Of a stretch of DNA of 64,000 nucleotides, positions 33,459 to 36,498 are shown piece after piece. Under the pieces are notes generated by a model. It was not told the DNA's origin, made no database searches, and worked only from the letters and a program-made list of their open reading frames with translations. The stretch lies in the NCBI RefSeq assembly GCF_009914755.1, contig NC_060942.1, one strand, 5' to 3'. Source of the DNA: the human T2T-CHM13v2.0 reference genome, Homo sapiens. Numbering within the stretch: the first letter of the stretch is position 1; each line of letters begins with the position of its first letter. Position numbers and translations under genes: made by a program.

Positions 33459-33498
33459 TTAAATAGCCCCGCGTCCACCTCCCTCAGCCTCCGATTGG
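33459..33498 (-). promoter_or_regulatory. TUBB8B core promoter: TATA-like TATTTAA (33465-33459) and CCAAT (33498-33494)
   Basis: Motifs ~85 and ~120 bp upstream of the ATG in canonical order. Confidence 0.65.
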
Positions 33499-33504
33499 GC
33501 TCCC

Positions 33505-36498
33505 AGAATAAGCAACAGCTTTACTTCCACACAGGTGCACCCACCTGTGAATCCCTTGGCGTTGAACGTCTGTTGGAGAACTCAGGTGTCCTTGCTATGG
33601 TCCCTTCCACGTTGGGGAAAGCTGCTCAGCTGGAGAACTTCTTCCCACGTCTTTAGTAAGACTAGATCCCTAGCTGAGCTGAAACTGAATTTTCCTCCCA
33701 TGTGGGAGGGGAAGACGCTTGTTTCCATATGCACGGAGTGCCTTTGCACCTGTCCTAGATTGATATTTTTGTAATGGAGATTCATTTCATCTATTAGGAG
33801 ATCTGTGGTTAGGAAAGGCCTTCCATATGTTAACTCAACAGGACTTAATTATACGTTTTACTTTGGAGCAGTTCAAACCCGCAGTAAGCTATGGGTGTTG
33901 GAGATAGTCAGGCGTCTGATTTAGCTGGAGTCTTCTGTAGAGTAGGATTAGCCCTTTCACCTTTCCAGAGGACTGCGGTCTCCACACAGAGTGAAGGTAA
34001 TATTGGATTCTTAAAGCTGAGGATAGGTGTTGGGTTACGCCTGCTGTGAAAGATGGGCCATTGTCACTTTGCAGGCTTTTAGATTACCGAAACTGAGGAG
34101 TTATTTCTTCTGGTAAACATTTTTCAGATGGGGTGGGGAATGCCTCGATCTAACCAGTGAAGGTATCAGTAAGCATTAGCAAATATTTGAATCTCCTGCA
34201 GAAAGGTATCGGAGTACATTAGAGTTGCCAGTTCTCACCTGGATAGGTTCCTCAATTTTGGACAGGTTTAACTGGAGAAGGAGAAAATTGCTGGCCGTTT
34301 GGGTCATGTCAGGCACAGAGCTCACAGGGCTGAGTCACCTGTTTTAGTGTCTTGAAAAGATTTACCCCTATAAACAAATGAGACATTAACAGAAACAAAG
34401 AATCCCTTCTAGGGTGAAAAGAATCATGAAAGTGCTGAGTTATACTCCTGTGATTGGTACTTGGCATTAGTAATTTATTACCATCATTCAGCCTGAGGGG
34501 CCCTGGACTGAAATGCAATCCCTGGCCCATTTTTGTTCTTCTTCAGGGTATTCCGGCCCAGTTCTATGTATGCTGACCAGCACGCCCACAAGCTTCATTG
34601 GCCCTTTCAGTGCAGGGGCCTTGGCTGTGGCATCTACAAGGGCATTTCCTTTTACATGGTCAGTCTCTCTTTTGATGTCCTCTGCAATTAATTATAGTCA
34701 CTTTTTGGCAGCAAAGCAGCATTCTAACAAGCTCAAAATCTGAATGATGTATGGAAAAGCCCTTTGGGGTCAGGAGTCCCCACCCATTCCAAATTGCAGC
34801 ATAAGCATGAAGCACTAAAAAATCATACTTGGAATCAGTGTAAATGTTAACTTTTAAATCCTTTCCAACTGCAGGGGCCTAGTAAGTTCAATTAACTCAG
34901 CTTTTTGAGCTGAGGTCGAGGCCAGCAAGGCTTGTGCCTTGATTATCTTGTGCTAATAATAGCATATCTAGCCCTCCTGTTTTCCTGATGCATAAAACAA
35001 CTTGCATCTGTTAACCACTCTGCCTTGGGATGGTCAAGGGGCTCATCTCTCTTAAGTCTGGCCTGCTAGAATCAATTTGTTTCATAACCTGTGACATGCT
35101 TTGGCTGTGTCCCCAGTCAAATCTTATCTTGAATTATAGCTCCTATAATTCCTATATATCGTGGGAGGGGCCCAGTGGGAGGTAATTGAATCAGGGGATG
35201 GGTCTTTCCCATGCTGCTCTCGTGACAGTGAATAAGCCTCATGAGATCTGATGGTTTATTTATTAATTTATTTTTGAGACAGAGTCTTGCTCTGTTGCTC
35301 AGGCTGGAGTGCATTATCATGATCTTGGCTCACTGCAACCTCTGATTCCCGGGTTCAAGCGATTCTCCTGTCTCAGCCTCCCGAGTAGCTGGGATTACAG
35401 GCACCCACCACCATGCCTGTCTAATTTTTGTACTTTTAGTATAGACGGAGTTTCACCATGTTGGCCAGGCTGGCCTCGATTTCCTCACCTCAGGTCATCC
35501 ACTGCCTTGGACTCCCAAAGTGCTGGGATTACAGCTGATGGTTTTATAAAGGGGAGTTTCCCTACACAAGCTCTTTTGCCTGCTGCCATGTAAGAGATGT
35601 GACTTTGTTCCTCACCTGCCTTCTGCCATGAGTGTGAGGCCTCTCCGACCATGTGCAACTGTGAGTCAATTAAACCTCTTTTTTTATAAATTACCCAGCC
35701 TCAGATATGTCTTTATTAGCAGCATGAGAGCAGACTAATACAACCTGTATGCCAGAAAGGCTGGGAGCACCTGTGGACTCTGACAGGCAAGTAGATGGGT
35801 TTATGGTTTGCCAGGCTTTAAGGGTTATGTCTGGAGGGTCGGTCTAGCAATAAGGCCTCACACTTTCATAAATATTCTCCTATTATCCACTGCTGCCCTT
35901 TAGCTTCTAGGACCACCTTCCCTTGGTGTGGGGTCAAAAACCTGTAGGTGCTGTTCTAATGTTAGTTTATTAGCTTTGCCAACTAGAAAAGTGGTAGCAG
36001 CAATAGCTCTAAGACATCAAGGCTAAAAGTCAGAGGATTGCTGAGGAAAGTAAAAGCTAAACTGTTTGGGGCCTCTTTCCTGGGGCAGCCTCCAGGCTAC
36101 TGCAAAACGGAGGCGGTGGGCAGAAAGGCAACAATATGCAGAGCACTCAGGTGAGGGACAAAGAGCACAAGGTGGACAGTCCAAAAAGAGAAAGTGGCAA
36201 ACATCTTGTTTAGCCAAATCCATTCTTCTCAATATTCCCCAGGGCCTCTAACCCTGTGGGCTTGGCCTCTAATCTGAGTATGACACCCCCAGGTCTCTAA
36301 CTTTGGGCTGAGTCTCTCACCCTAATATTATACCCTAGGGCCTCTCACTTAAGTAATAGTGGGTAATCATTCTTGCCAACCTGAATGGCTTCGCAACTCT
36401 AAAAGACAGCCCACTTGCCAGCTGATTGATTCTATGTGGATTGTTTTCCTTGGAGTGGGGGTCTTGTCTTGGTGTCCCTTCATGGCATTGCTGAAAGA
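33505..36498 (-). mobile_element. ERV1 (MER4-group/MER61-like) internal region with decayed pol (RNase H and integrase)
   Basis: RNase H SAQKAELIEL..VNIYTDSKY (~34800-34990); integrase GTYPGENWQ, LHSVWRPQSSGKV..AN, LSPVELTYGRPF, DLVLLKTW..PTWKGP*..GIHRWVHL. Confidence 0.85.
35092..35742 (+). mobile_element. THE1-type MaLR solo LTR, with an antisense Alu at ~35255-35535
   Basis: tgacatgctttggctgtgtcc...cagactaataca; 5-bp TSD acctg on both sides. Confidence 0.9.

What the first reader, a model, noticed from the sequence alone, without database searches (positions are those of the whole stretch)
33459..33680. TUBB8B promoter is fused to ERV integrase DNA that supplies a cluster of E-boxes
Seen: ERV1 integrase C-terminal coding sequence (DLVLLKTW..PTWKGP*..GIHRWVHL) runs to ~33505, within about 10 bp of the CCAAT box. 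It contains four E-boxes in 100 bp: CAGGTG 33532, CACCTG 33542 (together a perfect 8-bp inverted repeat cacaggtg-cacc-cacctgtg), CAGGTG 33583 and CAGCTG 33627. Established: TUBB8 is primate-specific and oocyte/early-embryo expressed, and the oocyte bHLH factor FIGLA acts through E-boxes. Inference: oocyte specificity may have arisen when the ancestral upstream promoter was replaced by ERV coding DNA (not an LTR), with some E-boxes gained where the sequence departs from the usual integrase motif.
Basis: partly seen in the sequence, partly recalled or inferred. Interest (0 to 1): 0.8.

Follow-up and report, generated by a model that had tools for sequence, protein, structure and literature searches.

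The report
Tubulin gene promoter fused to retroviral remnant
The egg-cell tubulin gene TUBB8B keeps only 75 bases of its parent gene's promoter, and everything further upstream is a dead retrovirus whose integrase remnant carries four E-box motifs that may, but are not shown to, drive expression in egg cells.

Summary
On the gene (minus) strand, a degraded gammaretrovirus-like pol remnant (RNase H to integrase C-terminal domain) runs from 35136 down to 33508. Homology to the TUBB4B locus starts at that same base and continues through the gene and about 3.3 kb beyond it. So the TUBB8 family is a DNA-level TUBB4B duplicate whose 5' breakpoint lies 75 bp upstream of the start site. The break removed a CpG island holding five CCAAT boxes and left a TATA core.

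All four E-boxes lie where stated, at -99 to -199. They form the tightest such cluster in the 64-kb window. All four are present in the chromosome 10 TUBB8 copy, and each is kept in 21 to 26 of 27 human copies.

At three of the four sites, none of nine other ERV copies has a CAGGTG, CACCTG or CAGCTG motif. At the fourth, five of those copies have CAGCTG.

The link to oocyte expression remains inference. The E-boxes are no better conserved than neighbouring ERV DNA across the paralogs. One is an annotated splice donor. The CCAAT box is absent from chromosome 10 TUBB8. An ERV 5' LTR lies 3 kb upstream. I found no paper describing this junction.

The parts
27845..33508 (-). Block copied at DNA level from the TUBB4B locus: 75 bp of promoter, the four-exon gene with introns, and the downstream flank
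   Evidence: locus L058 (C9:149476000-149485999) positions 2884-5272 align to window 33508-31162 (78.5% over 2431 columns). Further pieces align down to 27845 (69% over 2417 columns, and shorter ones).
33319..33433 (-). Exon 1 of the selected transcript (start site 33433, ATG 33375-33373)
   Evidence: Annotation table supplied with the finding; sequence read.
33434..33507 (-). Retained TUBB4B-like core promoter (-1 to -74)
   Evidence: 70% identity over 206 columns, E 1e-27, from window 33508 to the exon 1 donor. It includes GCTATTTAAGCGTTAGCGGAG against GGTATATAAGCGTTGGCGGAG.
33459..33465 (-). TATA-like box TATTTAA, -26 to -32
   Evidence: Aligned to TATATAA of the chromosome 9 gene. The form ending in A occurs in 9 of 27 copies, including chromosome 10.
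33494..33498 (-). CCAAT motif, specific to some copies
   Evidence: CCAAT in 12 of 27 copies, CGAAT in the chromosome 10 copy; the chromosome 9 gene has CCCATTCC here.
33497..33508 (.). Fusion junction, best placed between 33508 and 33507 (gene sense TGCTTAT|TCTGGGA)
   Evidence: TTCTGG is shared with the chromosome 9 gene and absent from all 9 ERV copies. The closest ERV copy also matches GGAGCCC down to 33497, hence a zone. The junction word is exact in 22 of 27 copies, altered in 4, and deleted in 1.
33532..33537 (.). E-box E4 (gene sense CACCTG, from His-Leu codons), -99 to -104
   Evidence: the 9 ERV copies have CACTTA (6), CACCTA, CAGTTA, CATTTG; kept in 24 of 27 paralogs.
33542..33547 (.). 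E-box E3 (gene sense CAGGTG), -109 to -114; also an annotated 5' splice site CAG|GTGGGT
   Evidence: The annotation table has exons ending at 33545. CAGCTG in 5 of the 9 ERV copies; kept in 23 of 27.
33583..33588 (.). E-box E2 (gene sense CACCTG), -150 to -155
   Evidence: ERV copies have CTCCTT (5), CTTCTT (2), CTACTT, C-TCTG; kept in 21 of 27.
33627..33632 (.). E-box E1 (CAGCTG), -194 to -199
   Evidence: ERV copies have CAGCAG (7), TAGCAG, TAGT-G; kept in 26 of 27.
33508..35136 (-). Degraded gammaretrovirus-like pol remnant, RNase H to integrase C-terminal domain, broken by stops and frameshifts
   Evidence: frames. RNase_H at 34663-34878 (E 4.6e-4), Integrase_H2C2 at 34312-34542 (8.3e-5), rve at 33892-34083 (0.017). 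PDB integrase cores, best E 7.8e-5. MLV-type C-terminal domain.
35742..36023 (-). pol piece 5' of RNase H, separated from it by inserted repeats (about 35159-35600)
   Evidence: 76.6% identity to the internal region of the chromosome 3 provirus (L063 878-1151). Not scanned against Pfam here.
36027..36584 (-). Region just inside the 5' LTR; about 5 kb present in the chromosome 3 provirus is missing between this and the pol piece
   Evidence: pieces align to L063 6194-6241, 6844-7070 and 7057-7317.
36499..37057 (-). ERV 5' LTR, same orientation as the gene, 3.1-3.6 kb upstream of the start site
   Evidence: aligns to both terminal repeats of the chromosome 3 provirus (L061 5071-5564 at 74.5%; L063 8009-8365 at 76.4%). 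Those two repeats are 87% identical to each other over 334 columns.

Best explanation
Shown. The TUBB8/TUBB8B promoter is a chimera made by one ancient rearrangement. A DNA-level copy of the TUBB4B locus was joined, 75 bp upstream of its start site, to the integrase C-terminal end of a truncated, internally deleted gammaretrovirus-like provirus in the same orientation. The copy carries the introns and the downstream neighbour. The provirus runs 5' LTR, leader, RT-end, RNase H, integrase. The break removed the parent's upstream CpG island with its five CCAAT boxes and kept only the TATA core. CpG-poor ERV DNA replaced what was lost, and it carries four CAG-half-site E-boxes at -99 to -199. The junction and the E-boxes predate the spread of all roughly 30 human copies.

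Inferred. Losing the CCAAT/CpG-island module removed the housekeeping drive. The remaining TATA core suits the oocyte's TBPL2-based initiation. The E-box cluster sits where FIGLA acts in the zona pellucida gene promoters, and it is the most likely positive input through a FIGLA/E-protein heterodimer.

I put the structural part at about 0.95. I put at about 0.3 the claim that the E-boxes contribute measurably to oocyte expression.
For: Structure.
- ERV homology and TUBB4B-locus homology meet at 33508.
- Retroviral domains lie in the expected order.
- The LTR is identified through the LTR pair of the chromosome 3 provirus.
- The junction is present in 26 of 27 distinct human copies.
- Ten kb of the chromosome 10 TUBB8 copy is 96.8% identical to window 27175-37194.

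Lost module.
- The chromosome 9 gene has 5 CCAAT boxes within 231 bp upstream of the breakpoint. That stretch has GC 0.67 and CpG observed/expected 0.89.
- The ERV DNA that replaced it has GC 0.46 and CpG observed/expected 0.38.

E-boxes.
- They form the tightest cluster in the window; 1 of 300 simulations matched it.
- The 573 bp upstream of the ATG hold 5 such motifs in both TUBB8 copies examined, against 0, 2, 0, 1, 0, 0, 0 in the seven other intron-bearing beta-tubulin genes.
- Three of the four are absent from all 9 other ERV copies.
- All four are kept in the five-copy clade that includes chromosome 10 TUBB8: 0 variable columns against 2.35 expected, P 0.10.

Literature (passages read).
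- FIGLA prefers CAG half-sites and TCF3 selects CACCTG (PMC8431614).
- TBPL2 in growing oocytes strongly prefers TATA-like core promoters (PMC7755920).
- TUBB8 is primate-specific and highly oocyte-specific (PMC10598138).
- A TUBB8 pseudogene transcript, TUBB8P7, is the top oocyte-enriched lncRNA (PMC5797088). This fits specificity being encoded in the shared duplicated DNA, although multi-mapped reads could explain it.
Against: - No binding, reporter or start-site data for this promoter were found or could be generated.
- Across 27 paralogs the 24 E-box columns took 14 parsimony changes (0.58 per column) against 0.54 for the ERV background. Permutation gave P 0.64 to 0.82, so there is no excess conservation. 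Most copies are pseudogenes, so the test is weak.
- CAGGTG and CACCTG are also bound by ubiquitous E-proteins and by ZEB/SNAI repressors (recalled, not from a call).
- E3 is an annotated splice donor, and a second annotated donor at 34239 is also CAG|GTG (annotation table).
- The cluster was picked after the fact.
- Non-human primates could not be examined.
- The window gene is the chromosome 18 TUBB8B copy. Oocyte data in print concern TUBB8.
Confidence: 0.4

Rival explanations
1. The E-boxes are neutral relics. Oocyte-restricted expression comes from what was lost and kept. The CCAAT/CpG-island module was deleted, leaving a bare TATA core that is poorly used in somatic cells but efficiently used by the TBPL2/TFIIA machinery of growing oocytes. 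Other elements, intronic or distal, may also contribute.
For: Five CCAAT boxes and the upstream CpG island are lost at the breakpoint. The TATA-like box is retained and aligns with the parent's. TBPL2 prefers TATA-like sharp promoters (PMC7755920 passages). The E-boxes show no excess conservation across 27 paralogs.
Against: A TATA core alone rarely gives the very high, cell-specific expression reported for TUBB8. The density of E-boxes is unusual for the window and is unique among the eight beta-tubulin promoter types compared. The TBPL2 data are from mouse.
Confidence: 0.3
2. The paired CAGGTG/CACCTG motifs act mainly as repressor sites for ZEB- or SNAI-type zinc-finger proteins, keeping the gene silent in somatic cells rather than activating it in oocytes.
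For: Three of the four motifs are the CACCTG/CAGGTG type, and two of them lie 4 bp apart. That ZEB and SNAI bind such motifs is recalled, not from a call.
Against: No data. The loss of the CCAAT/CpG-island module already explains somatic silence. The motif type equally fits E-protein and FIGLA dimers (PMC8431614).
Confidence: 0.08
3. The ERV contributes through transcription that starts upstream. The 5' LTR (36499-37057) or internal ERV start sites (35136, 33684) drive chimeric transcripts that splice into the tubulin exons. The CAGGTG motifs matter as 5' splice sites, not as transcription-factor sites.
For: The annotation table lists alternative first exons 33545-33684, 33545-35136 and 34239-35136. 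Both donors are CAG|GTG. The LTR is in the same orientation. LTRs are well-known oocyte promoters (PMC7755920 passages).
Against: The selected transcript starts at 33433, downstream of a TATA box and inside TUBB4B-derived DNA. No annotated transcript starts in the LTR. These models are not tied to oocytes. Only one of the four cluster E-boxes is a donor.
Confidence: 0.1

Closest known systems
Zona pellucida gene promoters (Zp1, Zp2, Zp3) activated by FIGLA with an E-protein
   Same: E-boxes lie within the first 200 bp upstream of the start site of an oocyte-specific gene. The half-sites are of the CAG type that FIGLA prefers (PMC1906760 and PMC8431614 passages; window).
   Different: Here there are four E-boxes rather than one conserved box, and they sit in retroviral integrase-coding DNA. 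FIGLA binding or dependence has not been tested.
LTR-derived oocyte promoters (for example MaLR MT elements co-opted in mouse oocytes)
   Same: A retroviral element supplies the upstream regulatory DNA of an oocyte-expressed gene (PMC7755920 passages).
   Different: The DNA abutting the core promoter is internal pol (integrase) sequence, not an LTR. The main start site lies in host-derived DNA. The LTR sits 3 kb further upstream.
The TUBB4B promoter (parent locus on distal chromosome 9; name recalled from position)
   Same: The TATA box, -1 to -75, the 5' UTR, exons, introns and downstream flank are all homologous.
   Different: The parent has a CpG island with five CCAAT boxes upstream of -75 and only one CAGCTG in 573 bp. 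TUBB8 has ERV DNA with the E-box cluster instead.
Young gene duplicates that gain new expression because the duplication breakpoint truncates the promoter
   Same: The duplicate begins inside the parental promoter and acquires foreign upstream DNA.
   Different: This is a general concept, recalled. The particular pairing of a tubulin core with a proviral integrase remnant was not found in print.

Membership tests
Gammaretrovirus-like (class I) endogenous retrovirus, pol remnant | RNase H, integrase zinc finger, integrase core and MLV-type C-terminal domain in that order on one strand | tested here: met
   RNase_H E 4.6e-4, Integrase_H2C2 E 8.3e-5, rve E 0.017. PDB integrase cores, E 7.8e-5; 2m9u_A, E 2.2e-5. 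MLVIN_C, E 1.7e-5. Every Pfam hit is below its gathering cutoff, as expected for short broken fragments.
Gammaretrovirus-like (class I) endogenous retrovirus, pol remnant | Flanking long terminal repeat of the same element | tested here: met
   window 36499-37057 aligns to both terminal repeats of the related chromosome 3 provirus. Only the 5' LTR is present here. The 3' part is cut off at the junction, and no ERV continuation was found beyond the tubulin block.
Gammaretrovirus-like (class I) endogenous retrovirus, pol remnant | Open pol reading frame | tested here: not met
   multiple frame changes and stops, for example the TAG after PTWKGP. It is a dead remnant.
DNA-level (segmental) duplicate of the TUBB4B locus | Introns and flanking non-coding DNA homologous to the parent, with a defined breakpoint | tested here: met
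   78.5% over 2431 columns across exons and introns, starting at 33508, then 69% over 2417 columns of downstream flank; the parent's flank encodes a CMI2B-like (FAM166-type) domain on the opposite strand.
FIGLA-dependent oocyte promoter (zona pellucida type) | E-box within about 200 bp upstream of the start site, with a CAG half-site | tested here: met
   four motifs at -99 to -199. The criterion comes from PMC1906760 and PMC8431614 passages.
FIGLA-dependent oocyte promoter (zona pellucida type) | FIGLA/E-protein binding and E-box-dependent oocyte expression | not testable with these tools
   No binding or reporter data found. The phrase 'TUBB8 promoter' occurs in 0 papers. Of 38 papers holding TUBB8 and FIGLA, 15 were listed and none addresses it by title. 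TUBB8 has 0 occurrences in the 7 supplements of a FIGLA-overexpression paper.
FIGLA-dependent oocyte promoter (zona pellucida type) | E-boxes conserved beyond the neutral rate | tested here: inconclusive
   14 changes in 24 columns against a mean of 13.1 for random hexamer sets (P 0.64); 0 against 2.35 expected in the five-copy clade (P 0.10). Orthologues in other primates were not available.
TE-initiated chimeric transcript (start site inside the element) | Main transcription start lies within the transposable element | tested here: not met
   The selected transcript starts at 33433, in TUBB4B-derived DNA 75 bp downstream of the junction (annotation table). Alternative models do start in the ERV (33684, 35136).
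CCAAT-box (NF-Y type) promoter | Conserved CCAAT at about -60 | tested here: not met
   CCAAT in 12 of 27 copies, CGAAT in the chromosome 10 copy; the parent has CCCATTCC at this site.

The most novel reading that the evidence does not exclude
The oocyte specificity of the primate-only tubulin TUBB8 was created in one step by a promoter swap. A duplication breakpoint stripped the housekeeping CCAAT/CpG-island module from a TUBB4B copy and joined its TATA core to dead retroviral integrase-coding DNA, not an LTR. The E-boxes in that DNA, partly acquired by later point changes, now recruit FIGLA/E-protein at the same distance as in zona pellucida genes. This would be a case of retroviral coding sequence exapted as a tissue-specific proximal promoter for a clinically important gene.
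Probability: 0.25. Interest if true: 0.75.

Novelty: new variant of a known kind. Interest (0 to 1): 0.5.

Why it matters
TUBB8 is the main beta-tubulin of the human oocyte spindle and a major infertility gene. Mice lack it, and how it came to be expressed almost only in oocytes is not explained in the papers I could search.

The mapping here gives a concrete, small and testable promoter of about 320 bp. It consists of a 75-bp TUBB4B-derived TATA core plus ERV-derived DNA with four E-boxes. It also identifies what the parent gene had and TUBB8 lost.

The result bears on three things. It bears on interpreting non-coding variants upstream of TUBB8 in infertility patients. It bears on designing human-like oocyte expression cassettes, since a published knock-in used a ZP3 promoter instead (PMC10598138). 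It would also be an example of internal retroviral sequence, rather than an LTR, being used as regulatory DNA.

If the E-boxes prove inert, the finding is still a clean description of how a young gene's promoter was truncated. That alone is of modest interest.

Tried and rejected
- Tubulin block inserted into a provirus. Rejected. Four ERV relatives extended 6-9 kb past the integrase end give no match in window 18000-33508 apart from common repeats.
- Inverted repeat as a special feature. Rejected. The window holds 26 perfect 8-nt-arm inverted repeats with spacers of 0-6.
- CCAAT box as a conserved promoter element. Rejected.
- Purifying selection on the E-boxes among human paralogs. No signal. 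The five-copy clade gives only a weak trend.
- Closer ERV relatives to fix the ancestral E-box states. A search with the chromosome 3 provirus found that its nearest relatives are the TUBB8 copies themselves (76-81%). The other relatives are at or below 71%.
- Earlier findings of this scan.
- Feng et al. 2016 (PMC4767273). Not held. The statements that TUBB8 is primate-specific and oocyte-specific are taken from PMC10598138 passages instead.
- van Geel et al. 2000 on the TUBB4Q subfamily. Seen only as a reference in PMC12376486. It may describe this promoter and I could not read it.
- Empirical link between FIGLA and TUBB8. None found. TUBB8 has 0 occurrences in the 7 supplements of PMC11850904.
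- PMC8450412 reports that expression of ERV1 elements on chromosomes 2-5 correlates with TUBB8 and TUBB8P8 in oocytes of women with polycystic ovary syndrome. It does not concern this junction.
- First pattern search.
- Naming the ERV family. Not possible without Dfam or RepeatMasker.
- Other primates. Not available in any tool.
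Full report
**What is there.** The gene lies on the minus strand. The annotation supplied with the finding puts the start site of the selected transcript at 33433 and the ATG at 33375. Read in gene sense, a TATA-like TATTTAA lies at 33465-33459 (-26 to -32) and a CCAAT at 33498-33494.
- CAGGTG at 33532
- CACCTG at 33542
- CAGGTG at 33583
- CAGCTG at 33627

These sit at -99 to -199 from the start site. The 8+4+8 inverted repeat is exact.

**The upstream DNA is a retroviral pol remnant.**
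- Stop-to-stop frames on the minus strand carry recognisable pol pieces.
- Three of 11 fragments hit Pfam in the retroviral order: RNase_H (34663-34878, E 4.6e-4), Integrase_H2C2 (34312-34542, E 8.3e-5) and rve (33892-34083, E 0.017). All are below their gathering cutoffs. Seven fragments gave nothing and one gave a noise hit.
- The core fragment matches solved integrase catalytic cores (best E 7.8e-5; 10 sequences at E up to 1).
- The last 61 codons were read with X at the single in-frame TAG. They match one PDB sequence, 2m9u_A 'Integrase p46' (E 2.2e-5), and Pfam MLVIN_C (E 1.7e-5).
- The quoted peptides DLVLLKTW, PTWKGP-stop and GIHRWVHL are all there.
- E3 and E4 fall in the codons His-Arg-Trp and His-Leu of the C-terminal domain.

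**Where the ERV ends.** A search of the window's own assembly with 33459-34100 scored 40 of 69 candidates.
- Thirty are TUBB8-type copies at 84-100% identity, including four identical copies about 54 kb apart on the same chromosome. All cover the whole query.
- One copy, on chromosome 3, is 78% identical. Nine are 65-77% identical, and these start only at query position 50 or later.
- Re-alignment shows eight independent ERV copies matching down to 33508. After that they continue with their own shared sequence.
- The chromosome 3 copy matches to 33497.

**Where the tubulin promoter begins.** A degenerate pattern for the exon-1 peptide plus the splice donor found 24 places: 17 TUBB8-type and 7 other intron-bearing beta-tubulin genes.
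- Only the gene on distal chromosome 9 shares promoter sequence. I take it to be TUBB4B; the name is recalled from its position, not taken from a call.
- It is 70% identical over 206 columns (E 1e-27), running from the exon-1 donor up to window 33508 and no further.
- The TATA region is nearly identical.
- Over 10 kb of that locus, homology runs from 33508 through all exons and introns (78.5% over 2431 columns). It then continues down to 27845 (69% over 2417 columns, plus smaller pieces).
- So TUBB8-type genes are DNA-level duplicates of the TUBB4B locus, with the 5' breakpoint 75 bp upstream of the start site.
- The junction word TGCTTAT|TCTGGGA is exact in 22 of 27 distinct human copies, altered in 4 and deleted in 1. 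That indicates a single event before the family spread.
- Ten kb around the chromosome 10 TUBB8 copy is 96.8% identical to window 27175-37194.

**What was lost and what replaced it.**
- Upstream of the breakpoint the chromosome 9 gene has five CCAAT boxes within 231 bp, in a CpG island (GC 0.67, CpG observed/expected 0.89).
- The ERV DNA that took its place has GC 0.46 and CpG observed/expected 0.38.
The parent has CCCATTCC there, the chromosome 10 copy has CGAAT, and only 12 of 27 copies have CCAAT.

**The rest of the provirus.** The chromosome 3 relative is a provirus with terminal repeats about 12 kb apart that are 87% identical.
- Window 36499-37057 aligns to both of those repeats, so it is the 5' LTR.
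- Window 36027-36584 aligns to the region just inside the LTR.
- Window 35742-36023 aligns to pol upstream of RNase H.
- About 5 kb present in the relative is missing between those last two pieces.
- Other repeats are inserted at about 35159-35600.
- No ERV sequence was found beyond the far end of the tubulin block. The tubulin copy was therefore not simply inserted into a provirus. Two unrelated segments were joined.
- Rough Jukes-Cantor figures are d = 0.25 for gene against parent and d = 0.27 for this ERV against its nearest relative. Both point to an event tens of millions of years old, consistent with a primate-only gene. I do not put weight on exact dates.

**Are the E-boxes special?**
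- The four sites span 101 bp, the tightest 4-site cluster among 81 unique CAGGTG/CACCTG/CAGCTG sites in the window. The next cluster spans 183 bp.
- One of 300 first-order Markov simulations of 64 kb reached four sites within 106 bp.
- The 573 bp upstream of the ATG hold five such motifs in both TUBB8 copies examined. The seven other beta-tubulin genes hold 0, 2, 0, 1, 0, 0 and 0.
- The cluster was noticed after the fact, and many such clusters must exist genome-wide.

**Are they derived?** States in the nine ERV relatives:

| Site | States in the 9 ERV relatives |
|---|---|
| E1 | CAGCAG x7, TAGCAG, TAGT-G |
| E2 | CTCCTT x5, CTTCTT x2, CTACTT, C-TCTG |
| E3 | CAGCTG x5, TAGCTG, CATCTG, CAACTG, CAGTTA |
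| E4 | CACTTA x6, CACCTA, CAGTTA, CATTTG |

- Three of the four are therefore absent from every relative examined. E3 probably pre-existed as CAGCTG.
- The relatives are distant (65-78%). A second search found nothing closer than the TUBB8 copies themselves.
- The changes could have happened in the progenitor virus, before the fusion or after it.

**Are they conserved?** Each box is intact in most of the 27 copies: E1 in 26, E2 in 21, E3 in 23 and E4 in 24.
- On a tree of the 27 copies, the 24 E-box columns took 14 parsimony changes, or 0.58 per column. The ERV-derived background took 0.54. Random sets of four hexamers do as well (P 0.64, or 0.82 when hexamers with CpG are excluded).
- In the five-copy clade that includes chromosome 10 TUBB8 and this gene, 0 columns vary against 2.35 expected (P 0.10).
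- So there is no evidence of constraint. With mostly pseudogene copies, the test has little power.

**Other readings of the motifs.**
- E3 is the 5' splice site CAG|GTGGGT of annotated alternative transcripts whose exons end at 33545.
- A second annotated donor, at 34239, is also CAG|GTG (annotation table).
- These transcripts start inside the ERV (33684, 35136), not in the LTR.

**Literature.**
- No paper holds the phrase 'TUBB8 promoter'.
- Searches combining TUBB8 with promoter and retrovirus (9 papers) turned up nothing on this junction. The same was true for transposable element and oocyte (17 papers), and for primate-specific, duplication and TUBB4B (28 papers). A search for TUBB4B with subtelomere returned 0 papers. 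I judged these from the listings and the passages I read.
- Passages read support the background facts:
  - TUBB8 is primate-specific and highly oocyte-specific, and a knock-in used a ZP3 promoter (PMC10598138).
  - FIGLA was defined by an E-box within 200 bp in Zp1-3 (PMC1906760).
  - FIGLA prefers CAG half-sites and TCF3 selects CACCTG (PMC8431614).
  - TBPL2 in growing mouse oocytes prefers TATA-like sharp promoters and drives LTR transcription (PMC7755920).
  - TUBB8P7 is the top oocyte-enriched lncRNA (PMC5797088).
  - ERV1 expression correlates with TUBB8 and TUBB8P8 in oocytes of women with polycystic ovary syndrome (PMC8450412).
- The 2000 paper that defined this tubulin subfamily (TUBB4Q) was seen only as a citation and could bear on novelty.

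**Verdict.** The functional half, E-boxes from integrase DNA giving oocyte specificity through FIGLA, is plausible in motif type and position but untested. It competes with a simpler account: loss of the CCAAT/CpG-island module plus a retained TATA core. I rate the structural claim at about 0.95 and a real E-box contribution at about 0.3.

Noticed in passing
window 26906-30834 (+), especially 28194-30511: The lncRNA LOC124908014 overlies the decayed copy of the gene that sits next to TUBB4B on the opposite strand. The parent flank (L058 6869-7606, minus) encodes a Pfam CMI2B-like (FAM166-type) domain (E 5.5e-8), and the window stretch is 69% identical to it. The duplication therefore carried the neighbouring gene along.
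   Followed up: partly
G000 C18:41443, 95459 (this window), 149505, 203427: Four copies of the promoter/ERV stretch are 100% identical over 642 bp and spaced about 54 kb apart. The assembly therefore holds at least four tandem 54-kb units, each with a TUBB8B-type gene.
   Followed up: no
L061+L063 (G000 C3:124318000-124337500), about 124323070-124335870: This is the closest relative of the TUBB8-linked ERV. It is a roughly 12.7-kb provirus with terminal repeats 87% identical and several Alu insertions. The sequence just 3' of its integrase has almost no other match in the genome (one 177-bp match on chromosome 6). The family therefore seems very low in copy number.
   Followed up: partly
L058 2653-2858 (G000 C9:149478652-149478857): The presumed TUBB4B promoter carries five CCAAT boxes in about 200 bp just upstream of the point where TUBB8 homology stops.
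   Followed up: yes
window 34236-34241 and 33542-33547: Both annotated 5' splice sites of the ERV-initiated alternative transcripts are CAG|GTG, so E-box-like hexamers here double as splice donors.
   Followed up: partly
window 33320-33508 versus 33509-34100: Across the 27 paralogs, the TUBB4B-derived promoter, 5' UTR and exon 1 change about twice as often per column (0.88-1.05) as the ERV-derived DNA (0.54). The likely reason is that they are CpG-rich.
   Followed up: no
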